Program-made: the position numbers and the translations under genes
The notes under the pieces: generated by a model
The model's input: the letters and a program-made list of their open reading frames with translations, nothing else
What the model was told of the DNA's origin: nothing
Database searches by the model: none
Part shown: piece by piece, positions 8,083-32,000 of the stretch
Position numbering within the stretch: the first letter of the stretch is position 1
Layout of the letters: each line of letters opens with the position of its first letter
DNA from: an archaeon
Lineage (GTDB): Archaea; Iainarchaeota; Iainarchaeia; Iainarchaeales; JANQMZ01
Assembly (NCBI GenBank): GCA_028279805.1
Contig: JANQMZ010000007.1
Location: 330,001-362,000, forward strand
Length of the DNA: 32,000 nucleotides
Direction: 5' to 3'

Positions 8083-8153
8083 AAAAAAACCTTTTATTTT
8101 TGCTTTTTCTCCTATTCTAATAATATTCTCCTTTGTTTTTATTGTTAATGGGA

Positions 8154-11872: not shown

Positions 11873-11884
11873 TTCAATTCACCT

Positions 11885-12418: not shown

Positions 12419-12434
12419 GCAAAACAACCTTTTT

Positions 12435-12623
12435 TTAGTTTCCCGGATTTGAAACCTGTTCATTAAAAGTTTCTCTAACCTGCTGGCTTTGCTGAAACAT
12501 TGGCTTAATTACAGTAATAAGAATTAAAACAGCAATTGCCACTACCAAAATTAAATAAACAGAAGACCAGCTGCCCTGTGCTTTTTCTTCCTTAACAAAC
12601 TCTTTCAAATCCATCCAGTTCAT
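12435..12623 (-). CDS. Small (62 aa) pilin-like protein
   Basis: The sequence MNWMDLKEFVKEEKA|QGSWSSVYLILVVAIAVLILITVI has a longer leader than its neighbours, then a Q-G-S plus hydrophobic helix. TTAAATAG (12647-12654, minus strand) lies about 30 nt upstream. Confidence 0.5.
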   Translation of the reverse strand: MNWMDLKEFVKEEKAQGSWSSVYLILVVAIAVLILITVIKPMFQQSQQVRETFNEQVSNPGN

Positions 12624-12662
12624 AACCCATAATTAGAATAAAAGTGCTATTTAATGGTTACG

Positions 12663-12748
12663 AGAAAGAAAAAAAACAAAATTAAACTGCGAGCGCCAGC
12701 GAGCTAATGCCATTGTAAAATGGCATGTTCATAGCCGGAACACCGGCT
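12663..12748 (-). terminator. Hairpin pair plus oligo-T terminator after the candidate major pilin gene
   Basis: Read on the minus strand just after the TAA, the first hairpin is AGCCGG[tgtt]CCGGCT (12733-12748). The second is ATGCCAT[tttaca]ATGGCAT (12707-12726). These are followed by TTTAATTTTGTTTTTTTTCTTTCT, with the T8 run at 12669-12676. Confidence 0.55.
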
Positions 12749-13299
12749 TAAGCGTTTCTCAGGAAAACTCCGCAAACGGTTGTAGATGAATCAATATCCC
12801 CTTCATCAAAAACCGTGCCACATTCATTTGCCCATTCTTCTTCCAAAAAAGGAACTCCGCCAAAAACTTCCGGAGAAAACTGTGCTCTTTCATCACATAA
12901 AACAGTCATTTTAACCGAACGAGCATTACTGCTGTTATAAAAAATTGATTTTCCCAAAACACCTGAAAGAATTGTTTGATCTTCAAATAAATCCTTTAAA
13001 TCTCCCGGATGAACACAAATTTGTTCAAATCCAAGCCCGGCTGAAGATGAGTTTGCCAAAGCGGTTTGAGAAATTGAATCATCCCTGTTAAACTGAACAG
13101 CTGAATCAGTTGTTTTGGGAGAACCAGGTTTGTGCACCTGGCTTGTTATTAATTCAGCTGCTTTATCATCCGGGTTTCCCTGCCCCGGCAACTGAATTAA
13201 TCCTAAAATGTTGAATAAAATTGTTAAAATTGCAATTGCAACAATTGCTGAAATTAATAATCGAAAAGTTGCAAAAGCCTGTCCTTTTTGGTTTAACAT
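12748..13299 (-). CDS. Class III signal peptide pilin, candidate major pilin
   Basis: The N-terminus is MLNQKG|QAFATFRLLISAIVAIAILTILFNIL. The gene has its own TATA-like box, an AGGTGGA SD (13303-13309) and a downstream terminator. The ectodomain contains four Cys residues. Confidence 0.75.
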   Translation of the reverse strand: MLNQKGQAFATFRLLISAIVAIAILTILFNILGLIQLPGQGNPDDKAAELITSQVHKPGSPKTTDSAVQFNRDDSISQTALANSSSAGLGFEQICVHPGDLKDLFEDQTILSGVLGKSIFYNSSNARSVKMTVLCDERAQFSPEVFGGVPFLEEEWANECGTVFDEGDIDSSTTVCGVFLRNA

Positions 13300-13347
13300 T
13301 AATCCACCTGTTTTGACAATTTAAAAGGAAAAACTACTATTTAAAGC
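13300..13347 (-). promoter_or_regulatory. Internal promoter and RBS for the candidate major pilin
   Basis: The minus strand reads GCTTTAAATAGTAG...CAGGTGGATTAATG. The TTTAAATA-type TATA box (13337-13345) abuts the stop of the upstream pilin gene, about 38 nt before the ATG. The SD is a strong AGGTGGA. Confidence 0.45.
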
Positions 13348-13803
13348 TTACTGGCTTGAAGTAATGGGTTTGCCGAATGAAACAATGCATTGTTCCGAGC
13401 AATCCGAATCAGAGGACAAATGGCATAACAGGTAAATGTCTGACAGAATTCTTTTTTTAACTTCAATTCCGTTTGTTTTAACATCAAAATTGGCAATATT
13501 TTCAGATTGAAAAGATAAGCATTCTTTTGAAATTATCGTGTTTTGGGTAAAAAACGCTGTGTTGTAAAAACCTTCTTCCAAAAGCAAGTCATCAATTACA
13601 ATCGGGGAAGAGTTTTCAAAATCTTCAGGTGCCAGATTTTCAATTGCATTATGAAACCCGTCGGTTAACCTTTGCTCGCTTATATCCAAACGCAATTGTT
13701 CAAAATAAGTTATGGCTCCCGTTATTATTCCCAAAATAAATAATGCCATTATTATGCCGATTAAAAGGCGGTAACTTTCAAACTCCTGGCCTTTTTGATT
13801 CAT
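13348..13803 (-). CDS. Class III signal peptide (archaeal type IV pilin-like) protein
   Basis: The N-terminus is MNQKG|QEFESYRLLIGIIMALFILGIITGAI. The start overlaps the platform gene's stop (ATGA). The C-terminal part is Cys-rich (ECLSF...LLCHLSSDSDCSEQC). Confidence 0.75.
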   Translation of the reverse strand: MNQKGQEFESYRLLIGIIMALFILGIITGAITYFEQLRLDISEQRLTDGFHNAIENLAPEDFENSSPIVIDDLLLEEGFYNTAFFTQNTIISKECLSFQSENIANFDVKTNGIEVKKRILSDIYLLCHLSSDSDCSEQCIVSFGKPITSSQ

Positions 13804-19062: not shown

Positions 19063-19596
19063 ATGTTTGAAAATTTTTTTAAAAAAAAGAAAAAATATCT
19101 GGAAAAAGAATCACCAAAAGCAAAAAAATTTTTGTTTATTTTTTTAATTGCATTTATTTTATTAAACTCGGTCTTATTGTTTGTTCCATTACAGGTTTTT
19201 GAATTACCGATTGCGCATCTGACTTTGTTTTATTTAACATTAAAAGGAATGCAGGGGCAAATTGTTTTACAGGAACCTGTTTTGATTTCAATGAGTTCAG
19301 GTTTGCAGATTATAATTTCTTATTTGTGCACAGGCTTAATGGAATTGTTTGTATTATGGGCAAGCATTATTGCTTCAATAGGCATAAGCATTAGAAAAAG
19401 AATTCTGGGCCTGGTTTTTGGCTTAATCGGGACGCAGATTTTTAATCTTATAAGAATTTTTATAACACTGGAATTTATTCTAAAATCAAACATTGACACA
19501 ATCGTTTTTGTGCATGATGTGCTGTTTAGGGTAACCCTTTTAGCTGTAATAGCAGGCTTATATGCAGCATGGTTTTACTGGGCAACAAGAGAATGA
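19063..19596 (+). CDS. Exosortase/archaeosortase-family membrane protein (short form, 177 aa)
   Basis: The protein is polytopic. It has the family's ordered motifs: Cys in SYLC(89)TGLMEL, Asn/Arg in IFNLIR(131)IFITL, and VH(151)DVLFR(156)VTLLAVIAGLYAAWFYW. The Cys-to-Arg spacing is 42 aa. GGTG lies upstream of the ATG. Confidence 0.65.
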   Translation: MFENFFKKKKKYLEKESPKAKKFLFIFLIAFILLNSVLLFVPLQVFELPIAHLTLFYLTLKGMQGQIVLQEPVLISMSSGLQIIISYLCTGLMELFVLWASIIASIGISIRKRILGLVFGLIGTQIFNLIRIFITLEFILKSNIDTIVFVHDVLFRVTLLAVIAGLYAAWFYWATRE

Positions 19597-19721: not shown

Positions 19722-22700
19722 ATGGTAATGGAACAAATAGGGCGGTTTTATGCAGGAATAGAGGAAAAATGGTATAATTTTGCCGATGCCCTTGAAAAAA
19801 AAGGAATTCCGTTAACCATTTATACAAATTTTTTGGAAGAAAAAGGCATTCCTTCACTGCCTTTTACGATAGGAACATTCATATTGCTTGTAGGAGTTTT
19901 TTACTTTTTTTTAATAATGAATGCGGGAATAAACCCAACATTGCAGTTAAGTGTTGTTGACCAGGTTGGCAATCCTGTTGGCGGAGTACAATTAAATGTT
20001 TCAGGCCCGGGATTTGATTCTTTTACAAGAAATGTGGGCAGCTCGGAATTATTGGCTTTGGCGCCGATGAATGTTGGTTCAGTTGTTACAATAAAAGCAT
20101 CAAAAGAAAATTATTCAAGCACAACACAGGAAATAAAAATAAGCGGGGAAACTCAGCCTGTTAAAATAGTTCTTGAAACAAATTTTAATCACATTGTGGG
20201 GCAGGCAAGCTTTGTTGATGCTGAAACAGGAACAGTTATAACAGATATTACTGGCGCAACTGTTACTGATGCGTTAGGCAGAACATACCGGGGCAGGGTT
20301 TCAGACGGAAAAGTTGTGTTTGCAAATGTTCCGGAAGGAGAAGAGCTTGACATTTTAATAACAACAAGAAATTATGAAGAATATGATAATACCATAAGCT
20401 TTTCTGAAAATGAAATTCCTGCAATTGAATTAATGCCAATACTGGCAGGCTTTGCGGCAAAAACAGATTTGTTAATAGAGGTAAGAGATGAAACGGGAGA
20501 ATTTGCAAAAAATGTTTTAATAAAAATTTTAAACGAATCAGGTGAAAGCATTTATGAGGAAGACTCGGAAACGGGAACGTTTCAGGCACAGCTTGACGAA
20601 AGAAAAATTGTTCAGATTGTCGTAGAAAAAGAAGATTACCTAATTTTTAATTCGGAACCGTTTACTTTGACAGGAGATGAAACACAGTACACTGTTAATT
20701 TAAGAAAAGGCGGGGAAAAATTAACGATTACTGTTGTAAACCAGGCAAGCACTCCTTTAAGCAATGCTTTTGTTGCATTGCACAATTTTGAAGGAAAATT
20801 TGTTGACAGCAAGGAAACAGGAATTGATGGCATTGCAGAATTTGCAAACCTTGACCCGAATTTGGCATATTTTGTGTCAGGCTCAAGATCAGGTTTTTTG
20901 GCTGAAAGAATGAACGTAGAACCTGCTAAAACTGAAAATGTTATTTTAAGGCTTGAAGGAATAAGCCCTGCCAATTCAGTTAATGCAAAAGTTTTTGTGT
21001 TTGAATCAGAGGTGTCACCGGCAAACAATTCAACTGTTTCATTTTTTGAAATAACTGAAGACAAGGAATTGCCTTTAGGGTTGCCTCCTGCAAGAACAAA
21101 CATTACAGGACTGGTTGAATTCAAAGTAAAACCTAATACAAATGTTTTGGTTAAGGCTCAAAGAGGTTTAATGGAATCAGAGGCAAGTTTTGTTCCCGAA
21201 ATTGGAAAAGAAAATGAAATCAGGATTATTTTGGAATTGCCCCCAACAATTACAAGGTTAAATTTTGTTGATGAAACAGGAAAACATCAGAAAGGTTCCG
21301 TGCTTATTACAACAGAATCGGGGGATACGTTGTTTGATGGAAAAATAGAGTCAGGAAAAATTTTGTTTAATTCTGATAATTACAAATCGGTTATTGTTAA
21401 CGTGGAATTGGAAGACGGAACAACTTACACTGAAAAACTTTTGATTGGAAATGAAAAAGAATTAAGTTTAACTGTTGCAGGGGAAAAAAATTCAGGAGCA
21501 AAACCGGAGTTAGAATTTTTGGGAATATTTAATGAACAGGGTCAAAAAGTTGAAGCAATTTCAAAAGAAAAGCCGTATTATTTAAAATTTAAAACAGTTT
21601 TTGCACCGGGAACAGCAAAAGCTGGACTGCATGTAAGGCTGGGTCCGGATTCAGTCAAATATGTTGACTCGCAGGGCATGGGAATTTTAGGATTTGATGC
21701 TGTAACGGGAAATTATTTTTTAGGCACAACTTATACTCCTGAACCTTTGCCGGGAAACGAATCAATTGACAAGCAAAATTCCGGTGGAAAAGAATCTTAC
21801 AACAAACTGGTTGAATTGTATTATTCTGAACCGAATGAAATTGAAATTGCAAAAATTAAGGTTCAGGCAAGACAGACTTTTGATGCAAAAGAATTTGATG
21901 TTCATTACAGGGCATGGGTTGAAACATCGGGAAAAATTTACAGAGAACCTCAGGATAAAGAACTTGGAAATGAAAGATTTTCATCAGTCAAGTCAGGGTT
22001 GTATGCTGAAACCCAGAGAACAAGTGTAAAAGTGTCTGAATCGCAGGTGCATTGCGGTGAAAACATTTGCGCAGATTATGTTTTTGTAGATGAGTCAGGA
22101 TTAGTGTTTGAAGAAAATGAATTCAAGCCTGTTCTGGGAAAAACTTATGCATTGCAAATGAATCTGAATTCGGGGCAAACTGTTACCCCGAGCGTTTTAA
22201 TTTCAACTGAAAAGCAGGAACCAAAAATTTTGTTTTCAAGTTACCAGGTTCAGGCTTTCGGAGCTTTTCCGGGAGGAGACGCAAAAAGAGTTGAATTAAG
22301 AGTTGAAGGTTTAAGGATTCTGGCAAATCAGGAAAGAAATGTCAGGGCATTTTTTAAAACAGATAATGCAGGTTCAAGTTTTGTTAATGTAAAAATTGCA
22401 TTAGGCGAAAACATTACAGAAAAAACATTTTACTTTAATGTTTCAAAACAAAAAGAATTTGAAATAGAAGTTGTTCCTGAAAAAATTTTCGTAGGAGACA
22501 ATTTTGTAATACTTTTAACAGATACTGAAACCGGAAGCTTGATTGAAAATGCAACAATACAACTGGAAACAACAAAAAATGAACTTGTAAGGACTGTAAT
22601 AGGAAACGGTTCAATTGACAGGGGTGCAGGCGGAAGATATTTGGTAAAAGAAGGAATGGGAATAGGAGAATACAGGGCAATAATTTCAGCACCTGAATAC

Positions 22701-25700
22701 AAAACAATTGAATATCCTTTGCTGATACTGGAAGAAGGTTTAATTGAACTGGCAGATGTTAAAATTTCTCTGGCTCACAGCCAGTCAAAATCAGGAGTAA
22801 ATGCTGTTTTGACAAATAAAAGCAAATTTTCTCTTGAAAATGTTTCAATTGAAATAAGAGAGGATTCACAATGGCCTGATGAGTTAAGATTAAAGCTTGT
22901 AACAGAACCTCAAAAAGTCGGGTCAAACGGGAAAGCAAGTTTCAGAATTGAAGCGGAATACACAGGAGAACTGGAGGAAAGGGCGTACGGAGAAGCTGAC
23001 CTGATTGCATCAGGTTTTATTGCCGGAAAATTTTACTCTCAAACAATTTCAAGAATAAGAGTTTCATACAATGAACAGTTTGATGCTGAATGTCTGGCTT
23101 TTGACAAAAAAAACATAGATGTTTCAATGCTGGGAATAACGGGGAACCAGCAAACAGTTTCGTTCAGGGCAACAAACAATTGCGGAAAACAATTGGAATT
23201 AAAGCCTGAAGTTTCAGGAGAACATTCGGATAAGGAATTAAGATTGCAGCCATCTGACATTATCATAAGGGCAGGGGAAGAAAAAGAATTTGATGTTGAT
23301 GTTTCAAACAGAATTAACCGTTACTATTCAGGACCAGAGGAAAGAAAATTCAGAGTTTATTACAGAAGCCCTCAGATAACAAAAGTTTTGGACATAAGAA
23401 TTTTACTGACTCACCCCTCATTTTCCCTGCAGACAAATGACAACATTGACGTATTTTTAAGCCCTGAAGAAGGAAGCTCAAAAGCAACAGGGCATGGAAA
23501 TCTTTTCATAAAAAATGTTGGTTCAAGAGCAATTGAAGCAATAAATATTTCACCAGGAGCAACCCAAAGCAATATTACCCTAAGAGTATTGCCAGTCGGA
23601 GGATTATACGGGCAAGGGTCACAGGCAGTTGGATTGCCACACCCTACAAGAGGAGCTGCAACAATTTTTGACATATTATCATTAGGCTCTTTTACTCCGG
23701 CAAAAACACCTTACCTGGAACCACAGGCACTGGCTTTCTCACCTACAAAAAGACCTGTTTACGGAGGATTAGATGTATCAACACAACAGTTGAGGCCCGG
23801 GGAACAAATCAATCCGCCGATGACAATTTACGCGGAAACAAGTGCATTAAAAACATTGCCACGGGAACCGCAAAAAAGAATTCTTGAAATTTCAGGAGTA
23901 ATTGACGGAAGAAGATATCCTTTGAAAACTGTTACAGTTTGGCTGCACGCATCATCACCACAATGCTTAAAGATTTTCGGAGCAAACAACAAGGCTTTCA
24001 GAAGCGGCGATTCTTCAGAGGGAAGCATCAGCCACAATATTGATATTAAAAATGACTGTGGGGAAGAAGTTAGAAATATTTCAATTGAACCTGAAAACTT
24101 TGGAGGAAACACATTCGAGTTGGTTCCGTTGGACACATCTTTTTTGAGACAGGGGCAAAGAGCATCATTTAAATTAATTTTAAAGAAAGGCTCGGATTAT
24201 TCAACTTTGGAAGGAAGAACTGAAACATTGTTTGTGAAAGGATTCCTTGTAAGAACTCAAAGATTTATTAAATCGGCCCCGATTAGCGGAATAATAATTG
24301 AAATAGGCCAAAAAGCGGAAGCAATCGGAAAAGCAACAAGCCCTGTCGCAATACCAGTATGTGAACTGCCAGAAGAAGACGGCTTGGCTGTCAAGTTTCC
24401 GGTAATTGCAAAAGGAAATGATTGTACAACAGGTTATTGTGATGCGGAACAGTTTTCAGAATTTTTACTTGAAAAACTTGACAACAAAGTTTCAGATGTT
24501 CAGAGAAAAATCAGGGCAGGTTCGGGAAATACTGCAAGCTTTGCAGGCTGTGACCCGACACAACCATTTTGCAGTTTTTCAAGCATGGGCGTAATATCGG
24601 CGCCTGTTTATTCATATTTCCAGAATGACTTGCTGAGCAAGGATGTAATAAAACATGTTCAGGATCAGGGCAGGTATAAAAGTGTTCAAAAAATGCAGCC
24701 TGAATTCAGGCAGGTTGACATTGAAAAATTAAACGCAAGCTTTACAATTAACCAGTTAATGATATCAGAAGTAATAAGAGGTTGTGGACGGTATGAATTA
24801 AGTTTTGACGGAGCTGTACAAAATGTCGGAGGCAAGCTGTTAGAAAACAACATTGTTTTACAGGTTAATGTTATCGGAAAAAGCCATACGGATGAATGCA
24901 ATCCTACAAAAATTCAGAACATTATGAACTTTTTGCCGCAGGATGAAGGCCTGACAACTCTTGACAGGAAAGGAACATGGCTTGGATTAATTCAGTATGA
25001 GTCAAGAAATGAAGGATTTAAGGAATTGGCTTCAGACTTGTCAAACACTTTGTTTGGAACTGAAACAGGCAGGACAACCACAGGAGCAACGGGAACAAAC
25101 AGATTGAATTTGGAATTAGGGGAACTGGAAGGAAACAGCATTGTAAAAATTGAAACAGACCAGCGTTCTGAAGAAACACCGCAGCCAAGAAATTCAAAAG
25201 TAATTTTAACAGATTTATATGCCCAAAGCTCTGAAGCTTACAGAAATGAAATCGGAAAAGAAGCGGGAAAAGCTTTGGCTGCATTAAAACAAAGCCAGAT
25301 TAAAGGTTGTATTGCACAGGATGAATCATACTTGTTGTTGGAATCAGCTGAAGATGTTGGCAATACAAAAATAACAGGACCAAAAGGATTACCTTTAACA
25401 ACTGCAGAATTTTGTTCAGCTTACAAAGTTGAAAGTTCTTTAATCGGAGGGGAAATAGAACTTGAAGCAAGCACTGAAACTGATCCGGTGCCGGGAATTG
25501 AAAACATTGTTTTAAAAAATTCAAACGGAGAAGAACTGGGAAACAATGGAAGCAATGTTTATACAACAGACAATGGCGTGCCGATAAGATTAAATGAAAA
25601 TGAGGAAACAGGGCAATTTGAATATGAATTCCAGTTATGTGTTGACGGAAAAGGACCTGTTGTGTTTGAAGCTCGTGACCAAAATGTTGCACTGCAGGCA

Positions 25701-27923
25701 AAAAGTGTTAAATTGCCTCAGGGCACTGAACCAAAAGAAATTGAATTGCTGGTTTGCGGAATCAATCCGACAGATTTGGTTAAAAAAGCTTCAACTGTTC
25801 AGCCGGGAACATATTATGCTGTTGCAATGTGGGAAGACGGTCCTGACAAGCTTGATGCAGGATTTATAGATGAAGCAGCTTTATCAGCTTACAGAAAAAA
25901 TGAAAGCGAATTTTCAGCAAGAGGAAATGCCCAACAGGTTGGAGTAAGCAGGCAATTGGACGGGAAAAAATACGCCGGAGTCGGAACATATTTTGCGGGT
26001 TGTACCGCCACATCATTGATTGCAGGAATGTGGATAAAAGGACCCGGAGATTTGGTTTTTGATTGTGTGATTCCGAGTGTCTGGGCAACTGCAGACATAG
26101 CATTAGACTTTGGAAGCTTTTATGATAATACGGTTAAACCTTTTTTGAGCCAGATCCCTTTGCTGGAAACCATTATTCCGGGAGCTGAAACTGAAAACAA
26201 TTTTGAAGAAACATTATTAGGACCGGGAAGAGCCGGTTTGAGCGCAAGGCTTGTAACACAATTGTTAAGTGACAACGCAACAGACGGAGCACAAAGGCTG
26301 GCAAATGTGGTGGTGGATGAATGGAACAATGCTCATTTGAATGACATTGTTAAAAACGCACCTAATGAAACATCAAGAGTTGATGCATTCAGAAACACTT
26401 TGAGAAGAAATACCGCTGAAGCTGCCGAAACAGCTTTGAGAAATGTTAAAAGCAGGAGAATAACAACGCCTGTGACAATGCGTAACAATATTGTCGAGGT
26501 ATCAAAAGATGCAATGCAAACCGGTTTGACTAAAACTCTTTCCAACAGAAGCGTAACCAATGGCTTGGCTCAGGCTGCAGAGTCAGCCGGAATAAAAGTG
26601 TTTACAGCCGGTTTGGGTGTTGCGACGGCAAGCCTGTTTGCATCAGCAGATGTTGCGAAAGAGGTTTCAAAAGGAACGCCGGAGGTTCTTAACGGAATTA
26701 CATTTGAAGATTTGACAAATAAAACCATTTCTGGGCAGCAAAGAGAAGCAAGAAGAAACGCTCTGCAGGTATTCAAAAACAATCAGAGTAAAATTATTGA
26801 TGACACAATAGCGGCTCTTCAAAAAGATGGACGAGTTGGAAAAGAACTGTTAAGTAAGCCGTTGGAAGAAGGTGGTGGGGAGACGCTTGAAGGATTTATA
26901 AGAAAAGAATTGCAAGAGAAGATTGGAAATTCTGCGGATAGCATAGATGTAAGACAAATTGAATCTGGAAGATATTCAAAATGGCAAGTTAACACAAAAT
27001 CATCAGAATTGACTGAAAGAATAGTGAATGAAAGCCTGGCAAAAGTTTCAAAGAATGAAAACGTTCAAAATGTTTTAAGGGAAAGCCTTTCAAGCCAGGC
27101 TCAAAAAGAATTAGGGCAGCAATTGTCAAAAGAATTTGATGAAGTTGTTGAAAGGATTTATCCAGAAGAAGCTGGAAAGCTGGCAAGAAATACTGCCAGA
27201 GGATTCAATTTAAGGCATTGGACACAAATAGCCAGAACAATGGGATTGGGCTTGTTTAAAGGAATTGGTTCTCAGACAGTTGGTTATGCATTGTGGAACT
27301 TGTATTGGACTAACGGACCGGGAGCAACACCATTGCAAGGCGGTGTTTTGGTTGACGGGGCATTTGTAAAAGGAGCTCCGGTACAAATTCAGATAACACA
27401 GCATGGAAAGAAAAAAATAGAATTTGTTCCTATTGATGAAACAATTAGCCCCGGGCTTGTTGAAACAATGAACCGGGATGTTCAGGCAAACAAATCGATT
27501 TTATGGCAGGATGAAGGAATATTCAAATGCAGTGATTATGGTGAAACAAAAGCAGGTTGTCTGCTGCTGGTTGACCCTGCAAGCCAGAGTGTAAGGCAGG
27601 AGTTTAATGAAACACAAGCATTTGTTTATTCAACAAATCTGGATGCAATAAACGGTGCAAGCGAATCTTACGGAGTAGAAGAAAATGAATTGCTTGCTGT
27701 TCTGTTAACAGATGCTGACACAATTAATGGTTGCTCAGTTCCAAGCAAAACATGGTACTTTGATTTGCAAAGCGAAGAAGACAGAACAGGAATAATTAAT
27801 TGTGTTGCTGGAAAAATGAATGCGGTTAATGGCAATTATGGCCAGTTGGGTTACAGTGTAAGTCAATTGAACACAATTTCATCTTTGTCAAAAGCTTTTA
27901 AGGAAGTAAATGCCTGTAGTTAA
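19722..27923 (+). CDS. Giant N-terminally anchored surface protein (2733 aa), no recognisable family beyond beta-sandwich repeats
   Basis: This is an uninterrupted 8.2-kb ORF with GGTG at 19712-19715. The N-terminal ~45 aa module is (WYNFADALEKKGIPLTIYTNFLEEKGIPSLPF), followed by a TM helix (TIGTFILLVGVFYFFLIM). Six ~85-aa CarboxypepD_reg-like modules come next. The rest is a long Cys-pair-rich region, then a helical C-terminal region with three hydrophobic segments. Confidence 0.9.
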   Translation: MVMEQIGRFYAGIEEKWYNFADALEKKGIPLTIYTNFLEEKGIPSLPFTIGTFILLVGVFYFFLIMNAGINPTLQLSVVDQVGNPVGGVQLNVSGPGFDSFTRNVGSSELLALAPMNVGSVVTIKASKENYSSTTQEIKISGETQPVKIVLETNFNHIVGQASFVDAETGTVITDITGATVTDALGRTYRGRVSDGKVVFANVPEGEELDILITTRNYEEYDNTISFSENEIPAIELMPILAGFAAKTDLLIEVRDETGEFAKNVLIKILNESGESIYEEDSETGTFQAQLDERKIVQIVVEKEDYLIFNSEPFTLTGDETQYTVNLRKGGEKLTITVVNQASTPLSNAFVALHNFEGKFVDSKETGIDGIAEFANLDPNLAYFVSGSRSGFLAERMNVEPAKTENVILRLEGISPANSVNAKVFVFESEVSPANNSTVSFFEITEDKELPLGLPPARTNITGLVEFKVKPNTNVLVKAQRGLMESEASFVPEIGKENEIRIILELPPTITRLNFVDETGKHQKGSVLITTESGDTLFDGKIESGKILFNSDNYKSVIVNVELEDGTTYTEKLLIGNEKELSLTVAGEKNSGAKPELEFLGIFNEQGQKVEAISKEKPYYLKFKTVFAPGTAKAGLHVRLGPDSVKYVDSQGMGILGFDAVTGNYFLGTTYTPEPLPGNESIDKQNSGGKESYNKLVELYYSEPNEIEIAKIKVQARQTFDAKEFDVHYRAWVETSGKIYREPQDKELGNERFSSVKSGLYAETQRTSVKVSESQVHCGENICADYVFVDESGLVFEENEFKPVLGKTYALQMNLNSGQTVTPSVLISTEKQEPKILFSSYQVQAFGAFPGGDAKRVELRVEGLRILANQERNVRAFFKTDNAGSSFVNVKIALGENITEKTFYFNVSKQKEFEIEVVPEKIFVGDNFVILLTDTETGSLIENATIQLETTKNELVRTVIGNGSIDRGAGGRYLVKEGMGIGEYRAIISAPEYKTIEYPLLILEEGLIELADVKISLAHSQSKSGVNAVLTNKSKFSLENVSIEIREDSQWPDELRLKLVTEPQKVGSNGKASFRIEAEYTGELEERAYGEADLIASGFIAGKFYSQTISRIRVSYNEQFDAECLAFDKKNIDVSMLGITGNQQTVSFRATNNCGKQLELKPEVSGEHSDKELRLQPSDIIIRAGEEKEFDVDVSNRINRYYSGPEERKFRVYYRSPQITKVLDIRILLTHPSFSLQTNDNIDVFLSPEEGSSKATGHGNLFIKNVGSRAIEAINISPGATQSNITLRVLPVGGLYGQGSQAVGLPHPTRGAATIFDILSLGSFTPAKTPYLEPQALAFSPTKRPVYGGLDVSTQQLRPGEQINPPMTIYAETSALKTLPREPQKRILEISGVIDGRRYPLKTVTVWLHASSPQCLKIFGANNKAFRSGDSSEGSISHNIDIKNDCGEEVRNISIEPENFGGNTFELVPLDTSFLRQGQRASFKLILKKGSDYSTLEGRTETLFVKGFLVRTQRFIKSAPISGIIIEIGQKAEAIGKATSPVAIPVCELPEEDGLAVKFPVIAKGNDCTTGYCDAEQFSEFLLEKLDNKVSDVQRKIRAGSGNTASFAGCDPTQPFCSFSSMGVISAPVYSYFQNDLLSKDVIKHVQDQGRYKSVQKMQPEFRQVDIEKLNASFTINQLMISEVIRGCGRYELSFDGAVQNVGGKLLENNIVLQVNVIGKSHTDECNPTKIQNIMNFLPQDEGLTTLDRKGTWLGLIQYESRNEGFKELASDLSNTLFGTETGRTTTGATGTNRLNLELGELEGNSIVKIETDQRSEETPQPRNSKVILTDLYAQSSEAYRNEIGKEAGKALAALKQSQIKGCIAQDESYLLLESAEDVGNTKITGPKGLPLTTAEFCSAYKVESSLIGGEIELEASTETDPVPGIENIVLKNSNGEELGNNGSNVYTTDNGVPIRLNENEETGQFEYEFQLCVDGKGPVVFEARDQNVALQAKSVKLPQGTEPKEIELLVCGINPTDLVKKASTVQPGTYYAVAMWEDGPDKLDAGFIDEAALSAYRKNESEFSARGNAQQVGVSRQLDGKKYAGVGTYFAGCTATSLIAGMWIKGPGDLVFDCVIPSVWATADIALDFGSFYDNTVKPFLSQIPLLETIIPGAETENNFEETLLGPGRAGLSARLVTQLLSDNATDGAQRLANVVVDEWNNAHLNDIVKNAPNETSRVDAFRNTLRRNTAEAAETALRNVKSRRITTPVTMRNNIVEVSKDAMQTGLTKTLSNRSVTNGLAQAAESAGIKVFTAGLGVATASLFASADVAKEVSKGTPEVLNGITFEDLTNKTISGQQREARRNALQVFKNNQSKIIDDTIAALQKDGRVGKELLSKPLEEGGGETLEGFIRKELQEKIGNSADSIDVRQIESGRYSKWQVNTKSSELTERIVNESLAKVSKNENVQNVLRESLSSQAQKELGQQLSKEFDEVVERIYPEEAGKLARNTARGFNLRHWTQIARTMGLGLFKGIGSQTVGYALWNLYWTNGPGATPLQGGVLVDGAFVKGAPVQIQITQHGKKKIEFVPIDETISPGLVETMNRDVQANKSILWQDEGIFKCSDYGETKAGCLLLVDPASQSVRQEFNETQAFVYSTNLDAINGASESYGVEENELLAVLLTDADTINGCSVPSKTWYFDLQSEEDRTGIINCVAGKMNAVNGNYGQLGYSVSQLNTISSLSKAFKEVNACS
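19941..21480 (+). repeat. Array of six divergent ~85-aa beta-sandwich (carboxypeptidase-regulatory-like) modules at the protein level
   Basis: There is a recurrent pattern of (V/I)x(V/F)xDxxGxP(V/L)xxAxVxL...(T/S)DxxGxxxFxxLxxGxYxxxxxxxGF-like strands. Examples are LSVVDQVGNPVGGVQLNV..., LIEVRDETGEFAKNVLIKI..., ITVVNQASTPLSNAFVAL... and LNFVDETGKHQKGSVLIT... Confidence 0.55.
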
Positions 27924-27939
27924 AAAAATGTGATTTAAA

Positions 27940-29670
27940 TTGAATGAAAAAGCGTTTAATCTTTTTACTGCGTTACTTTCATTCATTTTAATCATTTTAA
28001 CTGTTTTATTGTTGAATGCGATGCTTCAGGCTGAAGGCGATGCTCAAAGCATTTTGTCAAGCACAAGCGAACAGTCAAGGCTTGAAGCCGTGCTTGAACT
28101 GACAAGAGCTGATGCTTTGCAGATATTTAACCATGCAATGCGTGTTTCAATAGAAGAATATATGGCTCTGAATGAAATTACTTTTGAAAGGGATAAATGG
28201 CAGGATTGGGATGCATTAATTGAAGATGTAAGGGTTGGAAAATTCGGAGGGCAAAGAGAAGATGAAACTGAGACAACTGCTTTTGCAAGTTTAATGGCTT
28301 CAAATCTGGTCAGCCTGTATTCAAGTTCGGATTTTGGTGCTGTTGGCTCCTATGATATTTCAATTGATACAAAAAGCCAGAAAAACTTAAGGGACGCATT
28401 AAAAGATATTTTAACAGCAGATGATTCTTTTTTGCAGGTGGTTGGATGTGAAAATGGAAAAATTGAAACATGTGAAAAAGGCACTTTTTACCTGGAACTT
28501 GACATGAGTGTTTTGTCAGATGAAGATTATGAAACAAAAATTCCAAAAATTGTGTTAAAAGACAATTCAACAAGCAGAACAATACGAGACCCGGTTCTTC
28601 CAAAAACAAAAATAAGATTGTATGTTCCTCTGCGTTTGTTTAAAGCAATAGCTTATTCAAGGGCAATGGCTTTCAATGTGGATGCACTTGAAGTGAATAA
28701 TACTGTGGAAGATTACGGCTTGTTGTCTTTAAGAATGCATAACGAGTTTGACAGCATGGCGCTTGGCTTATGTGATCCGGGTTATTGTAAAGCAAGAACA
28801 AATCCTTATTATCCGCCCATATCAAAAAGTTCAACTGAAGCATGCCCGTTTAATGAACCGAGAGTAAATGATTATTATGAAAATAATCCGATAAGGCTTG
28901 ACCCAGATGAAACATTGTCATTTACAAATGTTTCAAAATATAATCCGACTCCGTCGGCAAGGGATTCAGGAAAACAGCTTGGCAATATTGTGATTGACAG
29001 AGCCTGCGAAATAGCGGAAAAACAATTTACACAGGTTGCTTACGGAGGAAAATCGTTGGAAGAATTGGCCGGTGAAACATTTGAATTAAAGGGAACAAGT
29101 GATTGTTCTTTCATCAGCAAAGCTGTTGCGGGTTCAAATTCAAGAATTTCAAAAAGAATAGCTGGAAGCGGAGGCTCAGGAGGAGGCGGAAGAAATGTTT
29201 CTGTGCAAAGGCCAAACCTTTCATTTGCAAATCCTAATTCAATTTGTCCTCTGAGTTCTGCACAGTTGGCTGACTCGCAGCAAATGGGCTGGGGTGGACT
29301 ATATTTTAATCCGAATACGGGAAAACATGAAAAGCCGGATACAAGCGGAATGATTTTTTTTAATGATGCGGATTTTGAAGATTTTGCGGAATGTGCACAG
29401 CTTGAAACTTTAAGAATAACAATAGAATTTCAAGAAAAAGATGAAAGGTATAAGGTAAGCGAGTCAGATTTGACTTACAAATTTGTTTTGGCAGACGATT
29501 ATGTTCCGTTTAATCCAAACATGGTTATTGGTGAGCCTGACGCAGCATGTTCTTTGCAGATGCCTTTCCCGTCACCAAATTATAATGAAAATGACTGGAC
29601 ATGCCGTTATGGCGGAAGCGCGGGAGGATTATCTGAAGGGGGAACAATAAGCGGATGTTATCCTGCTTAA
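27940..29670 (+). CDS. Large (576 aa) Cys-rich protein with a pilin-like N-terminus, hypothetical
   Basis: The frame opens after TGA at 27931-27933. The only start that retains the N-terminal helix is TTG 27940, preceded by GTGAT (27929-27933). The N-terminus is MNEKA|FNLFTALLSFILIILTVLLLNAML. A Gly linker AGSGGSGGGGRN is present. The product has many Cys residues. Confidence 0.7.
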   Translation: MNEKAFNLFTALLSFILIILTVLLLNAMLQAEGDAQSILSSTSEQSRLEAVLELTRADALQIFNHAMRVSIEEYMALNEITFERDKWQDWDALIEDVRVGKFGGQREDETETTAFASLMASNLVSLYSSSDFGAVGSYDISIDTKSQKNLRDALKDILTADDSFLQVVGCENGKIETCEKGTFYLELDMSVLSDEDYETKIPKIVLKDNSTSRTIRDPVLPKTKIRLYVPLRLFKAIAYSRAMAFNVDALEVNNTVEDYGLLSLRMHNEFDSMALGLCDPGYCKARTNPYYPPISKSSTEACPFNEPRVNDYYENNPIRLDPDETLSFTNVSKYNPTPSARDSGKQLGNIVIDRACEIAEKQFTQVAYGGKSLEELAGETFELKGTSDCSFISKAVAGSNSRISKRIAGSGGSGGGGRNVSVQRPNLSFANPNSICPLSSAQLADSQQMGWGGLYFNPNTGKHEKPDTSGMIFFNDADFEDFAECAQLETLRITIEFQEKDERYKVSESDLTYKFVLADDYVPFNPNMVIGEPDAACSLQMPFPSPNYNENDWTCRYGGSAGGLSEGGTISGCYPA

Positions 29671-29768
29671 ATCACATTTAAATATTATTAAAAGCTAAAA
29701 TTATCGATAAGTTAATATATTCTGAAAAAGAAATAATACTTAGTTAATAAAGTTATAAAGTGAAAGAA

Positions 29769-32000
29769 ATGCCTGAGGATAATTTTTACCGGAAAATTGA
29801 AAACAAGTATTATGATTTAATGGAATCAATTGACGGGAAAGGCATTCCTGTCTACAAAGTTATTGATTTTATTGAGGAAAGAAATATTCCGAGTTTTCCG
29901 GTTTTTATTGTATTTATTCTTGCATTGGTTTTAGGAATCGGCTTTTTGCTTTCAGGATTTTTGCAGCCTACTGTTCTTGTATCTGTTTCAGGCAACGGGC
30001 AAAAAATTTCACTGGCTAACGTGGAATTGGTTGTGGACGGGGAAATTTTTTCTTCAGGAACAACAGATGAATCCGGAAATGTTTTATTGGTTGCACCTTC
30101 GGAAAAAAATTTTTCAATACAGGTTTCAAAAGCCGGGTTTGAAGACAAAACTTTGAGAGGCTTACTGTCAGATGGAAGCACTGTTGATGTTGAATTGCTG
30201 GAAAAAATTGGAAGCAGAATAATTTCATTCAAGGACGATGAAACCGGTGCATTAATTGAACAGGATTTGGTTGTAACTTTTTATTGTTCTGATTCTGATT
30301 TTGAAACAACACGTGTTTTAAGTGACGGAACAATTGAACTTGAAAATGTTCCGGGGGATTGTGGCACACTGACTTTCAGGCAGATTGAAGGATTTGAATC
30401 TGGAACAACCTCAATTAATGTTAATGAAGCTGAATCTGAAATTGTTTTAAAAAATCTGGGCAGTACCGGAATTGCTGATGTAATAGTTACAGGTGAAGAT
30501 GGCTTGCCTGTTTTCGGGGCAACAGTTTCTCTGATGAGTACACAGGGAACAAAAAACGAGGAAGATGACATTGTGGAACAGGTAAGCGAAACAACACAGG
30601 CAGGGATTGCTTCATTTGAGTCTGTGCCTTTGTCAGATTATTATGTGATTGTGGCAGACGATGAACATGAACAAAAGAAAAGCGAGATTCAGAGCCTTTC
30701 ATTTGAAGCTTTAACGTTTAGTGTTTCTCTTGAAAAAACAAGTTCGGGAATTGTAAAAGTCAGAGTTAAAAATGCACAGAATGAATTGTTAAAAGATGCG
30801 CAGGTTAAACTTGTAAAAGAAGATGTGGAACATGATTCAGGCTTTACTGATGAATCTGGTACAGTGGAATTAAGGGTTAATGCTTCTTTGAATTATAATT
30901 TGATTGTTTCAAAGCAGGGATTTGCCGAGGCAAAAGTTTCAAATGTTTCAGTCGGGGAAGAATTTTATGAAATTAGTTTAACAAAAGCAACAGCTTCAAA
31001 CACTGCCAATCTGGTTGTAAAAGTTATTGATTCAGAATCAGATCCGGTGGAAAACGCAAAAATTTTGTTAAAATATGCGGATGGTGAAACCGCCGGAGAG
31101 CCTGTTATAACGGGAATTAAGGGAAAGGCAGAGTTTTTTGACGTGGCTCCGGGAAGATATTATGTTCACGCGGTAAAAGAAGGATTTGAAGGGGTAACCA
31201 CAAACGAGTTTTCCTTAAATGCAGGGCAACAGAAAACTGAAACATTTCAGTTAAAACTGGGTTTCGGGCAGATTGATGTAATTGTTTTAAACGATGACGG
31301 GGAAAAAATAAGCGGAGCAACAGTTAAAGCTTATGATTTTTATTCACAGCAACTGTTAGACGAAAAACTTGGAAGCGAGGGAACAGCATCCTTTAATTTA
31401 AGAGTTGACAGGCTGCCTTTTTTTGTTATAACCCATCCTGATTATTCTTCTTTTACAAGTGCAACATTAAAACCTGTTAAAGGATTAACACAGCAGAAAA
31501 AAGTTGAACTTGTAAAAAATGTTTCAGCATTAAAAGCAGAATTTTTAGGATTGTTTTTGAATGAACAAACTGAAAAATCCTTAAACCCGGGAACAAAATA
31601 CACTGCAAAAATGAGATTGCTTGTTCCTGAAACAAAAACATATTCAAAAGTCGGATTCTTTTTAAGAACAGGGGAAGGAGTTCTGAACAAAACAAACAAA
31701 ATGGAAGAAGACTCGGTTTTTATTAAAAATGTTAAAACGTCGGCAGACAGTTTGAGAAAAGGAATGTCTTATACGCCCAACAAAGGTTTTTCATCTGATG
31801 CTAAAAATTTAACATCAGGCAATGCAAAATGGGTTCAGATGGAATGGGAAATTCAGGGATTACTACCAAAAACAGGAGTGTTTGAAGTTGAAGCAGAAAT
31901 ACAGGTAAAAAGTGAGGCAAGCATAGGCGATTCCGCAAAAATTTCTTACAGAGGTTTCGGAATTTCAGGGAATACAATTGAAAGAAATCCTGTTGACAAT
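29769..32000 (+). CDS. Giant N-terminally anchored surface protein, paralogue of 19722-27923, 3'-truncated by the window edge (at least 744 aa)
   Basis: This ORF is not in the track because it runs off the window. My hand translation from ATG 29769 found no stop through 32000. The N-terminus MPEDNFYRKIENKYYDLMESIDGKGIPVYKVIDFIEERNIPSFPVFIVFILALVLGIGFL parallels the 2733-aa protein. Six beta-sandwich modules follow, then ALKAEFLGLFLNEQTEK, which corresponds to ELEFLGIFNEQGQK in the paralogue. Confidence 0.8.
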   Translation, partial: MPEDNFYRKIENKYYDLMESIDGKGIPVYKVIDFIEERNIPSFPVFIVFILALVLGIGFLLSGFLQPTVLVSVSGNGQKISLANVELVVDGEIFSSGTTDESGNVLLVAPSEKNFSIQVSKAGFEDKTLRGLLSDGSTVDVELLEKIGSRIISFKDDETGALIEQDLVVTFYCSDSDFETTRVLSDGTIELENVPGDCGTLTFRQIEGFESGTTSINVNEAESEIVLKNLGSTGIADVIVTGEDGLPVFGATVSLMSTQGTKNEEDDIVEQVSETTQAGIASFESVPLSDYYVIVADDEHEQKKSEIQSLSFEALTFSVSLEKTSSGIVKVRVKNAQNELLKDAQVKLVKEDVEHDSGFTDESGTVELRVNASLNYNLIVSKQGFAEAKVSNVSVGEEFYEISLTKATASNTANLVVKVIDSESDPVENAKILLKYADGETAGEPVITGIKGKAEFFDVAPGRYYVHAVKEGFEGVTTNEFSLNAGQQKTETFQLKLGFGQIDVIVLNDDGEKISGATVKAYDFYSQQLLDEKLGSEGTASFNLRVDRLPFFVITHPDYSSFTSATLKPVKGLTQQKKVELVKNVSALKAEFLGLFLNEQTEKSLNPGTKYTAKMRLLVPETKTYSKVGFFLRTGEGVLNKTNKMEEDSVFIKNVKTSADSLRKGMSYTPNKGFSSDAKNLTSGNAKWVQMEWEIQGLLPKTGVFEVEAEIQVKSEASIGDSAKISYRGFGISGNTIERNPVDN
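29967..31525 (+). repeat. Array of six beta-sandwich (carboxypeptidase-regulatory-like) modules at the protein level
   Basis: Examples are KVIDSESDPVENAKILLKYADGETAGEPVITGIKGKAEFFDVAPGRYYVHAVKEGFE and IDVIVLNDDGEKISGATVKAYDF...GSEGTASFNL. The number and order of modules match the paralogue. Confidence 0.55.

What the first reader, a model, noticed from the sequence alone, without database searches (positions are those of the whole stretch)
19722..32000. Tandem paralogous giant proteins share a duplicated KGIP/IPS N-terminal module, a membrane anchor and exactly six beta-sandwich modules
Two features are seen directly in translation.
- The N-termini align as EEKWYNFADALEKKGIPLTIYTNFLEEKGIPSLPF+TM versus ENKYYDLMESIDGKGIPVYKVIDFIEERNIPSFPV+TM. 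This is a ~45-aa presumably cytoplasmic module with an internal (K/R)(G/N)IP duplication.
- Both then carry six ~85-aa CarboxypepD_reg-like modules and the same junction motif, ELEFLGIFNEQGQK at ~21505-21545 versus AEFLGLFLNEQTEK at ~31537-31580. Colinear similarity continues beyond this, for example TTYTPEP versus MSYTPNKG.

This N-in topology, with a stalk and a huge orphan ectodomain, is not one I can assign to a described family.
Basis: seen in the sequence. Interest (0 to 1): 0.75.

Follow-up and report, generated by a model that had tools for sequence, protein, structure and literature searches.

The report
Giant anchored surface proteins, DPANN archaeon
Two huge neighbouring genes of a tiny symbiotic-type (DPANN) archaeon encode related surface fibres that share an unannotated 45-residue N-terminal tag, one membrane helix and a fixed six-domain stalk, and they sit in a conserved gene cluster with a pilus motor, probably for gripping or attacking a host cell.

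Summary
Giant A (19722-27923, 2733 aa) and giant C (29769 to beyond the window, 2359 aa in full) are paralogs, colinear for about 1020 residues. Both have:
- a 45-aa N-module: helix, KGIP, helix, (K/R)(G/N)IPS(L/F)P;
- one membrane helix;
- six transthyretin-like beta-sandwich modules;
- a shared post-stalk domain of about 430 aa that opens with the EFLG(I/L)F junction.

The N-module matches no Pfam or NCBIfam model. It nevertheless defines a large family: 773 cluster representatives, always at residues 1-50, almost all 2000-3600 aa. Named sources are Diapherotrites/Iainarchaeum and Micrarchaeota. Stalk length is nearly invariant across 81 members.

The genes belong to a cluster conserved in distant genomes: type IV filament ATPase, platform and pilins; usually an exosortase-family protein; giant A; a ~570-aa pilin-like protein B; giant C; then one or two more giants.

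Some A-type orthologs end in peptidoglycan hydrolases. The window's A does not clearly do so.

My best reading is a set of N-in anchored, fixed-length surface fibres of a filament-linked host-contact apparatus, with the N-module as a retained cytoplasmic handle. The architecture is shown; the function is inferred. Large DPANN transglycosylase proteins have been noted in print, but I found no description of this module or cluster.

The parts
19722..27923 (+). Giant A, 2733 aa, A-type member of the N-module giant family
   Evidence: ORF, translation. Identical to P0001; full-length orthologs of 2700-3200 aa have E down to 1e-293.
19722..19862 (+). N-module of A (aa 1-47): helix 2-26, KGIP, helix 31-40, KGIPSLP
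   Evidence: AlphaFold2 model at pLDDT 94.8. The family profile finds 773 representatives with the match at residues ~1-50. The 14-residue repeat is shown.
19854..19919 (+). Single membrane helix of A (aa 45-66)
   Evidence: Kyte-Doolittle peak at 48-66. Modelled as a helix at 45-66.
19941..21479 (+). Stalk of six transthyretin-like / CarboxypepD_reg-like beta-sandwich modules of A (aa 74-586)
   Evidence: Iterated HMM finds six domains. Pfam PF13620 scores 44.6 bits against a 32.3 cut-off. Module 1 is modelled as a 7-strand sandwich whose Foldseek hits are transthyretin-like folds, carboxypeptidase regulatory domains, SpaC and SlaB.
21513..22769 (+). Post-stalk region shared with C (aa 598-1016), beginning at the EFLGIF junction
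   Evidence: BLASTP of A 598-1016 against C 591-1019 gives E = 2e-14. In 81 family members the domain starts 547-601 residues after the IPSF motif.
27339..27920 (+). C-terminal domain of A (aa 2540-2733), possibly a degenerate lysozyme/SLT-like remnant
   Evidence: Shared with 12 A-type orthologs. AlphaFold2 pLDDT is 73. Foldseek gives no significant hit; the best probabilities are g-type lysozyme 0.69, LytB and MltC. hhalign against family SLT domains gives probability 68% and skips the catalytic core.
27940..29670 (+). Protein B, 576 aa, large pilin-like protein conserved between giants A and C
   Evidence: The N-terminus is MNEKA|FNLFTALLSFILIIL. All 24 homologs start (K/R)(A/G)F(N/T)LFTAL and have no Pfam domain. 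It lies downstream of A in every related locus with sequence past A's end (L002/L003, L004-L009).
29769..32000 (+). Giant C (first 744 of 2359 aa), C-type paralog; continues beyond the window
   Evidence: Translation. The full gene is in L001 and equals P0038.
29769..29900 (+). N-module of C (aa 1-44)
   Evidence: P0038, E = 5.4e-17 against the family profile.
29895..29951 (+). Single membrane helix of C (aa 43-61)
   Evidence: Kyte-Doolittle peak of 2.93.
29970..31508 (+). Stalk of six beta-sandwich modules of C (aa 68-580)
   Evidence: Iterated HMM. Pfam PF13620 scores 117.5 bits over three stretches.
31539..32000 (+). Start of the post-stalk region of C, from the AEFLGLF junction
19063..19596 (+). 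Exosortase/archaeosortase-family membrane protein (177 aa) directly upstream of A
   Evidence: TIGR04178 scores 26.3 bits against a cut-off of 23. Orthologs upstream of A in L002 and L008 score 45.6 and 41.5 bits. tblastn also finds it in L007.
16117..18402 (-). Type IV filament ATPase (761 aa) with a ~400-aa N-terminal extension
   Evidence: Pfam T2SSE, E = 1e-19, at residues 398-611. A similar ATPase lies in the same cluster in L008.
13800..16112 (-). Type IV filament platform protein (770 aa)
   Evidence: Weak Pfam T2SSF hit. 50% identical to the platform gene upstream of the giants in L002.
9856..13803 (-). Six small pilin-like genes, several with (K/S)GQ class III-type N-termini
   Evidence: Translations. 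pil151 and pil183 have homologs in L002.

Best explanation
**What it is.** Giants A and C, plus a third paralog just past the window, are surface proteins anchored by their N-terminus with the N-terminus inside the cell. The organism is a DPANN archaeon, probably of the Diapherotrites/Iainarchaeum type. They belong to a widespread, unnamed family.

**Shown architecture.** From N- to C-terminus each protein has:
- a 45-residue two-helix module in which each helix ends in a KGIP-type proline turn;
- one membrane helix;
- a stalk of six transthyretin-like beta-sandwich domains, whose length is almost invariant across the family;
- a shared domain of about 430 aa;
- 1300-1700 residues that differ by paralog type.

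**Shown context.** The genes sit in a conserved cluster: type IV filament ATPase, platform and pilins; usually an exosortase-family protein; giant A; the large pilin-like protein B; giant C; and one or two further giants.

**Inferred mechanism.**
- The membrane helix acts as an uncleaved signal-anchor.
- The stalk carries the distal regions a fixed distance from the membrane. By my estimate from typical domain sizes this is roughly 20-25 nm, enough to cross the cell envelope.
- The distal regions bind, and in some lineages enzymatically attack, the envelope of a partner or host cell.
- The N-module stays in the cytoplasm as a handle. Its conserved hydrophobic stripe and the type-specific sequence of each paralog suit docking to a shared partner. 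That partner could be the other giants, held side by side in register, and/or the adjacent filament machinery.
For: **Paralogy and architecture**
- Shown: **Family**
- The module profile finds 773 representatives at E <= 1e-3. The match is always at residues ~1-50, and nearly all complete proteins are 2000-3600 aa.
- Short hits are fragments carrying the module, the helix and the start of the stalk.

**Fixed stalk**
- The post-stalk domain starts 547-601 residues (median 559) after IPSF in 81 members that share only about 25% identity.

**Synteny across distant genomes** (A-type orthologs 28-30% identical)
- Shown: - L008 is co-directional from the ATPase to the third giant.

**Pilin-like protein B**
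- B carries a prepilin-type (K/R)(A/G)|F(N/T)LFTAL N-terminus in all 24 homologs.

**Extracellular distal part**
- All 24 cysteines lie after the helix, mostly closely spaced.
- Among 21 A-type C-termini scanned, two end in SLT, one in NlpC/P60 and one in glucosaminidase. A further A-type ortholog in L009 carries SLT.

**N-in orientation**
- K/R bias is 1.5 on the N-side against 0.53 on the C-side.

**Type-specific module sequence conserved across genomes**
- Position 42 is G in 45 of 45 A-types and N in 20 of 30 C-types. The third type reads K(I/V)P...KV(V/I)PSF.
- This argues for a specific contact rather than a generic signal.

**Literature**
- Large DPANN transglycosylase proteins have been proposed to bind bacterial cell walls (PMC8204110).
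Against: - No experiment or dedicated topology predictor supports N-in, retention of the module, or any interaction with the filament machinery or between paralogs.
- The window's own A has no recognisable hydrolase. Its C-terminal domain is only faintly lysozyme-like.
- C-type and third-type giants have no enzymatic or known binding domain at all.
- Only about 4 of 21 scanned A-type C-termini carry a hydrolase.
- The exosortase-family gene is missing upstream of A in 2 of 6 loci. Its role is unexplained, because the giants lack any C-terminal sorting signal.
- The N-module is net acidic: 5.2 K/R against 8.0 D/E. This weakens the positive-inside argument.
Confidence: 0.55

Rival explanations
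1. The N-module is a long, cleaved leader. The giants would be processed just before the hydrophobic helix, either by the class III (prepilin) peptidase at K-G|IPSFP or at the small residue before F. The neighbouring type IV filament motor would then handle them as giant pilin-like subunits or tip proteins, much as the Sulfolobus bindosome handles sugar-binding proteins that carry class III signals.
For: - The giants are syntenic with a filament ATPase, platform and pilins, and they flank a genuine pilin-like protein B.
- K-G precedes IPSF in 45 of 45 A-type and 22 of 23 third-group members.
- Position 45 is a small residue (S/A/T) and position 46 is F/L/M, followed by a hydrophobic helix. This resembles the [AG]|F junction of B.
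- A helix followed by a beta-sandwich is also the archaeal pilin layout, by my own knowledge.
Against: - 20 of 30 C-type members, including the window's C, have N instead of G at that position. The third giants found in the loci read KV(V/I)PSF.
- The leader would be about 45 residues, structured and net acidic, unlike class III leaders.
- P at +2 and F at +4 do not fit the FlaFind-type motif as I recall it.
- The high sequence conservation of the module (Y10, E14, D22, E39 in more than 94% of members) is unusual for a discarded leader.
Confidence: 0.17
2. The N-module is only an export-modulating extension of a signal-anchor or signal peptide. It would be analogous to the extended signal peptide region of giant bacterial autotransporters, or to YSIRK-type signals. 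Its job would be to pace or target Sec translocation of very long proteins, with no partner in the filament system. The giants would be ordinary, independent adhesins or envelope proteins.
For: - The module is found only on very long proteins and always at the extreme N-terminus, immediately before the hydrophobic segment.
- There is no evidence of any binding partner.
- Beta-sandwich repeat adhesins are common.
Against: - Cluster order with the filament genes and protein B is conserved across genomes whose A-type orthologs share only ~28-30% identity.
- Each paralog type keeps its own version of the module across genomes.
- Stalk length is strictly conserved among paralogs. This suggests coordinated assembly rather than independent adhesins.
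Confidence: 0.18
3. The A-type giants are contact-dependent effectors of the polymorphic-toxin kind, comparable to CdiA. A long stalk would present a variable C-terminal cell-wall-degrading domain that is delivered to a bacterial target. The other giants would be accessory proteins.
For: - Different A-type orthologs carry different C-terminal peptidoglycan hydrolases: SLT, NlpC/P60 and glucosaminidase.
- Conserved glycine- and cysteine-rich hydrophobic motifs lie upstream of the C-terminus (seen in the sequences).
- PMC8204110 proposes bacterial cell walls as the target.
Against: - Most A-type members, including the window's, lack a recognisable hydrolase.
- No immunity-like gene is evident: the gene after A is always the pilin-like B.
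- There is no known pre-toxin boundary motif.
- In two cases the hydrolase is appended after a conserved C-terminal domain rather than replacing it.
Confidence: 0.1

Closest known systems
[quoted passage not shown] 2021, PMC8204110)
   Same: - DPANN-specific, up to ~3000 aa and predicted extracellular.
- A-type orthologs of the window's giant A (P0005, P0081 and the A gene of L009) carry a C-terminal SLT domain.
   Different: - The window's A has no SLT domain by Pfam.
- The paper does not describe the N-module, the six-domain stalk, the C-type and third-type paralogs, protein B, or the link to a filament locus.
- I could not check whether fam00969 is literally the same family.
Large Ig-rich adhesin-like proteins encoded in archaeal type IV filament loci (system 2 and subsystem 4G; bioRxiv 10.64898/2026.04.22.720090; Makarova et al. 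2016, PMC4858521)
   Same: - Very large beta-sandwich-rich proteins encoded beside an ATPase with an extended N-terminus, a single platform gene and several pilins.
   Different: - The proteins in those surveys are described with ordinary or class III signal peptides or C-terminal anchors.
- Here the anchor is N-terminal and preceded by a conserved cytoplasmic module.
- Three to four paralogs occur in series, together with a 570-aa pilin-like protein.
SlaB, the membrane-anchored stalk of the Sulfolobus S-layer
   Same: - A string of beta-sandwich domains that holds a surface structure at a fixed distance from the membrane.
- Module 1 of A gives a Foldseek hit to SlaB, 8qox_B. C gives a weak NCBIfam SlaB hit.
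   Different: - By my own knowledge SlaB is about 400-475 aa, is anchored by a C-terminal helix and has a coiled coil.
- There is no significant sequence relationship.
Extended signal peptide region (ESPR) and YSIRK-type signals of giant bacterial adhesins
   Same: - A conserved N-terminal extension found specifically on very long exported proteins. This comparison rests on my own knowledge.
   Different: - Those are bacterial, shorter, basic and part of a cleaved signal peptide.
- Here the module is about 45 residues, structured, acidic, and followed by a helix long enough to span the membrane.
Type IV pilins / class III signal peptide proteins
   Same: - Protein B has a typical (K/R)(A/G)|F(T/N)L... 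N-terminus.
- The giants have K-G five residues before a hydrophobic helix, followed by beta-sandwich domains.
   Different: - The giants' leader is ten times longer than usual.
- The glycine is replaced in most C-type members and in the locus-encoded third-type giants.

Membership tests
CarboxypepD_reg (Pfam PF13620) beta-sandwich repeats | Sequence match above Pfam's gathering score | tested here: met
   A scores 44.6 bits and C 117.5 bits against a cut-off of 32.3. An iterated HMM extends this to six modules in each protein.
CarboxypepD_reg (Pfam PF13620) beta-sandwich repeats | Transthyretin-like 7-strand sandwich fold | tested here: met
   Module 1 is modelled with seven strands at pLDDT above 90. 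Foldseek hits include 5-hydroxyisourate hydrolase and the regulatory domains of carboxypeptidases D, N and M, at probability 1.0 but E of only 1.7e-3 to 3e-2.
DPANN large lytic-transglycosylase proteins (fam00969, PMC8204110) | Very large (up to ~3000 aa) DPANN protein | tested here: met
   A is 2733 aa. Named relatives come from Diapherotrites, Iainarchaeum and Micrarchaeota.
DPANN large lytic-transglycosylase proteins (fam00969, PMC8204110) | SLT / murein transglycosylase domain | tested here: not met
   Pfam finds no SLT in A or C. The orthologs P0005, P0081 and the A gene of L009 do have it. The C-terminal domain of A aligns to the family's SLT domains only at probability 68% and without the catalytic core.
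DPANN large lytic-transglycosylase proteins (fam00969, PMC8204110) | Membership of the published protein cluster itself | not testable with these tools
   The sequences of fam00969 were not available. Full-length homology of A to the SLT-bearing P0005 (E = 5.6e-207) makes membership of the A-type likely.
Class III (prepilin) signal peptide proteins - applied to giants A and C | Short, basic leader ending in [KR][GA], then ~20 hydrophobic residues | tested here: not met
   The leader is about 45 aa, structured and net acidic. The window's C has R-N rather than K-G, and N occupies that position in 20 of 30 C-type members.
Class III (prepilin) signal peptide proteins - applied to protein B | Short leader, [KR][GA] then F, then a hydrophobic helix | tested here: met
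   B starts MNEKA|FNLFTALLSFILIILTVLLL. The pattern is conserved in all 24 homologs, several of which read KGFTLFTAL. Cleavage itself cannot be tested here.
Exosortase/archaeosortase substrates | C-terminal motif, then a membrane helix, then a basic tail | tested here: not met
   The only strongly hydrophobic segment in A is N-terminal. None of the 35 C-type and third-group giant C-termini inspected shows an obvious hydrophobic helix with a basic tail. A's own C-terminus, read, shows none either. The 1690-aa protein at 3211-8283 does have such a tail.
Exosortase/archaeosortase family (ORF 19063-19596) | Match to the TIGR04178 signature above its cut-off | tested here: met
   26.3 bits against a cut-off of 23. 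Orthologs score 45.6 and 41.5 bits. It reaches no named subfamily cut-off (XrtH, XrtX, ArtD).
HeH / SAP-like motif (Pfam Ish1) for the N-module | Sequence match to the family model | tested here: not met
   Only 2 of 14 modules hit Ish1, with a best E of 0.007, below any curated threshold.
Archaeal type IV filament 'system 2' locus (bioRxiv 10.64898/2026.04.22.720090) | ATPase with an extended N-terminus, a single platform gene, several pilins, and large adhesin-like proteins | tested here: inconclusive
   All four descriptive features are present: T2SSE at 398-611 of 761 aa, one 770-aa platform gene, six pilin-like ORFs and the giants. The arCOG and phylogenetic assignment that defines the system was not tested.

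The most novel reading that the evidence does not exclude
The N-module would be a docking tag that couples three or four paralogous giant proteins, in register, to a type IV filament motor and its large pilin-like protein B. Together they would form a previously unrecognised hetero-oligomeric surface organelle of DPANN archaea. Its fixed six-domain stalk would act as a molecular ruler across the envelope, and its tips would bind and breach host cells. This would be a new way for type IV filament machinery to deploy membrane-anchored giants rather than pilins.
Probability: 0.2. Interest if true: 0.8.

Novelty: new variant of a known kind. Interest (0 to 1): 0.6.

Why it matters
DPANN archaea are abundant, mostly uncultured and thought to live attached to other cells. 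The molecules that make contact with the host are largely unknown.

This family is large and takes up a striking share of the genome. In the source genome, about 21 kb of an 853-kb contig encodes three giants.

It has a simple sequence signature that can be used to find it in any metagenome. It is tied by conserved gene order to a pilus-type motor. In some lineages it carries bacterial-cell-wall hydrolases.

That gives concrete handles on three open questions:
- how these archaea attach;
- whether some target bacteria rather than archaea;
- what the divergent pilus systems of DPANN actually assemble.

The 45-residue module also merits a domain-family entry of its own. At present these proteins are labelled 'hypothetical' or 'carboxypeptidase regulatory-like'.

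Tried and rejected
**Searches that failed or were unavailable**
- The word-indexed protein search with the two N-termini found nothing, not even the query itself. This was a limit of the index. The exhaustive profile search then found 773 relatives.
With full-length A it found only three loci, and the source genome is not among the species representatives.
- PDB sequence searches with A, B and C returned nothing meaningful. The profile of the C-terminal domain hit MltC only at E = 1.8.

**Ideas considered and set aside**
- *HeH/SAP-like reading of the module.* The Ish1 hit is below threshold.
- *Giants as substrates of the adjacent exosortase-family enzyme.* They have no C-terminal anchor.
- *An IPSFP motif acting like PGF-CTERM.* With the large domain outside the cell, this motif would lie on the cytoplasmic side of the membrane. 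That is my inference.
- *The 146-aa ORF at 18504-18944 as a conserved partner.* It has no homolog in the related loci.
- *Short database hits as small proteins carrying the module.* They are fragments of giants.

Full report
**Setting**

The window is archaeal and AT-rich (GC about 0.36).
- It encodes a PAC2 proteasome-assembly protein and a CTP-dependent riboflavin kinase.
- On the minus strand lies a type IV filament locus:
  - a 761-aa ATPase, with its T2SSE domain at residues 398-611;
  - a 770-aa platform protein;
  - six small genes, several with (K/S)GQ-type pilin N-termini.
- On the plus strand follow:
  - a 146-aa ORF;
  - a 177-aa exosortase/archaeosortase-family protein (TIGR04178, 26.3 bits against a cut-off of 23);
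  - giant A (19722-27923, 2733 aa);
  - a 576-aa gene, B (27940-29670);
  - giant C (from ATG 29769, running off the window).

**Checking the observation**

- N-terminal similarity.
  - The N-terminal alignment is far beyond chance. The local score is 97 against 20.2 +/- 4.2 in 5000 shuffles.
  - It is the start of a 430-residue alignment with E = 1e-14.
- Membrane helix. Each protein has a single strongly hydrophobic segment right after the module.
- Six modules. An iterated HMM, seeded on the Pfam-detected CarboxypepD_reg repeats, finds six modules in each protein at nearly the same positions: A 74-586 and C 68-580.
- Junction and beyond. The two proteins are therefore colinear for about 1020 residues and then diverge.

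**The N-module**

- AlphaFold2 on residues 1-150 of A, with 42 family sequences, gave pLDDT 94.8. The model has a helix at 2-26, a KGIP turn, a helix at 31-40, a second KGIP turn, a helix at 45-66, and then a seven-strand sandwich.
- The sandwich matches transthyretin-like folds.
- A 155-sequence profile shows near-invariant Y10, E14, D22, K27, G28, P30, Y32, D36, E39, I43 and P44.
- It also shows a 12-residue unit, [LV]-D-x-L-[DE]-x-K-G-I-P-x-[YF], repeated at a 14-residue spacing.
- The conserved hydrophobic positions of helix 1 (6, 9/10, 13, 17, 20/21, 24) form a heptad-like stripe. This is my reading.
- Neither Pfam nor NCBIfam covers the module.

**The family**

- Full-length orthologs of A (25-30% identity, 2700-3200 aa) and C-like proteins (2400-2600 aa) all carry the module.
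- An exhaustive profile search of 1.84 billion cluster representatives found 773 proteins at E <= 1e-3 and 297 at E <= 1e-10.
  - The match always lies at residues ~1-50.
  - Complete proteins are 2000-3600 aa.
  - Short hits are contig-end fragments.
- Among members of at least 1600 aa, 45 resemble A, 30 resemble C and 23 belong to other types.
- Source names are 'hypothetical protein', 'carboxypeptidase regulatory-like domain-containing protein [Candidatus Micrarchaeota]', Diapherotrites and Iainarchaeum.
- In 81 members the post-stalk domain begins 547-601 residues (median 559; 5th-95th percentile 550-573) after the IPSF motif. Stalk length is thus tightly constrained despite low sequence identity.

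**Gene context**

- The source contig continues with the rest of C (2359 aa), a 150-aa membrane protein and a third giant. The third giant's module is a degenerate variant...ERIPVYKVIDPIDKVVPSF.
- Related loci from metagenomes and genomes keep the same order:
  - an exosortase-family gene, present in 4 of 6 loci where the upstream region is visible;
  - an A-type giant;
  - a B homolog of 566-624 aa;
  - a C-type giant;
  - one or two more giants.
- In L002 and L008 the filament platform and pilins, and in L008 also the ATPase, lie directly upstream. In L008 they run in the same direction as the giants.
- B is unannotated. All 24 of its homologs start with a short leader and (K/R)(A/G)|F(N/T)LFTAL, a prepilin-type N-terminus.
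- Each paralog type keeps its own version of the module across genomes:
  - A-type: KGIPLY..T(D/N)FL..KGIPS;
  - C-type: mostly ..RNIPSFP, or a shortened single-KGIP form;
  - third type: K(I/V)P...KV(V/I)PSF.
- The paralogs are therefore old, and each is separately constrained.

**Clues to function**

- The distal parts have no Pfam domains apart from beta-sandwiches.
- Among 21 A-type C-termini scanned, two end in SLT, one in NlpC/P60 and one in a glucosaminidase. A further A-type ortholog in L009 carries SLT. In P0081 and P0113 the hydrolase is appended after a conserved C-terminal domain.
- The window's A has only that conserved domain (residues 2540-2733):
  - AlphaFold2 pLDDT is 73;
  - Foldseek gives no significant hit, although the highest-probability matches are lysozyme-superfamily enzymes;
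  - hhalign to the family's SLT domains gives 68% probability while skipping the catalytic core.
- I treat this domain as inconclusive, possibly a decayed remnant.
- All 24 cysteines of A and of C lie after the membrane helix. K/R residues favour the N-side flank, 1.5 against 0.53. Both fit N-in topology with a large exterior, but they are indirect.

**Interpretation**

- Shown:
  - a widespread DPANN family of giant proteins defined by an unannotated N-terminal module, one membrane helix and a fixed-length six-domain stalk;
  - three or four paralogs per genome in a conserved cluster;
  - a large pilin-like protein in that cluster, and in at least three genomes an adjacent type IV filament machinery.
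- Inferred:
  - the giants are N-in anchored fibres that place type-specific distal regions at a set distance from the membrane, to bind and sometimes hydrolyse a partner cell's envelope;
  - the module is a retained cytoplasmic handle for co-assembly or docking.
- Rivals, with their evidence, are listed separately: a cleaved class III-like leader, a mere export-pacing extension, and a polymorphic effector.
  - The class III idea is weakened because the K-G is replaced by R/x-N in most C-type members, including the window's C.
  - The exosortase-family enzyme cannot act on the giants through a C-terminal signal, because they have none. A better candidate substrate is the 1690-aa protein at 3211-8283, which ends in a motif, a membrane helix and a basic tail.

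**Comparison with the literature**

- Castelle et al. 2021 noted proteins of up to 3000 aa with a lytic-transglycosylase domain in Woesearchaeota and Pacearchaeota. They proposed attachment to bacterial cell walls (PMC8204110; echoed in PMC10936187).
- A 2026 preprint on archaeal type IV filament systems notes that 'system 2' loci have ATPases with extended N-termini, a single platform gene and often large adhesin-like proteins.
- Makarova et al. described large surface proteins in archaeal pilus loci and divergent DPANN pilus islands.
- None of the papers I could search describes the N-module, the fixed stalk, protein B or the multi-giant cluster.
- I therefore rate this a new variant of a known kind, of moderate to high interest.

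Noticed in passing
window 3211-8283 (-): A 1690-aa ORF with no Pfam or NCBIfam hit.
- The true start is probably M68 (MNKNFAQKFSVLLVLFLLLNSSFAFA), which reads as a signal peptide.
- The C-terminus, NLPSLPEN-IVMLLITITAMLSSIMLV-RKRIIELR, is a motif plus membrane helix plus basic tail.
- That looks like a sorting signal, which would make this protein a candidate substrate of the exosortase-family protein at 19063-19596.
   Followed up: partly
window 19063-19596 (+): A small (177 aa) exosortase/archaeosortase-family protein directly upstream of giant A.
- It is conserved there in L002/L003, L007 and L008 but absent in L005 and L006.
- It reaches no named subfamily cut-off.
- Its substrate is unknown, and the giants lack a C-terminal signal.
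   Followed up: partly
window 27940-29670 (+): Protein B uses a TTG start. Its N-terminus is of the bacterial-type prepilin kind ((K/R)(A/G)|F(N/T)LFTAL, with T where bacterial pilins have E5) on a ~570-aa, cysteine-rich body that has no known domain.
   Followed up: partly
window 24-542 and 512-1432 (+): Two adjacent ORFs each carry a T2SSF domain. The first ORF's start lies almost at the window edge, so its true 5' end may be missing. Together they look like a split platform protein of a second type IV filament system.
   Followed up: no
giant A residues ~2085-2125 and ~2480-2510 (window ~25970-26100 and ~27160-27250): A-type giants share two moderately hydrophobic motifs rich in Cys and Gly. 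They read roughly Y(F/L)(G/A)xCxxxSxxCN(G/A) and CGxxxNxAG, and they flank a long low-complexity region. Their role is unknown, and they fall below the threshold for a membrane helix.
   Followed up: no
L002:20366 and L008:20057 (C-type giants of other genomes): These C-type orthologs have a shortened N-module with only one KGIP unit before the membrane helix (...EKWYVFSDWLEEKGIPVP-helix). The second helix/KGIP unit is therefore dispensable in some lineages.
   Followed up: no
window 9201-9869 (+): A 222-aa lysine- and glutamate-rich ORF with no family hit. It probably accounts for the AT-skew spike (0.44) in the 9-10 kb bin.
   Followed up: no
L001:27150-27602 (just beyond the window): A 150-aa polytopic membrane protein lies between giant C and the third giant in the source genome. 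It is not seen at that position in L002, L004, L008 or L009.
   Followed up: no
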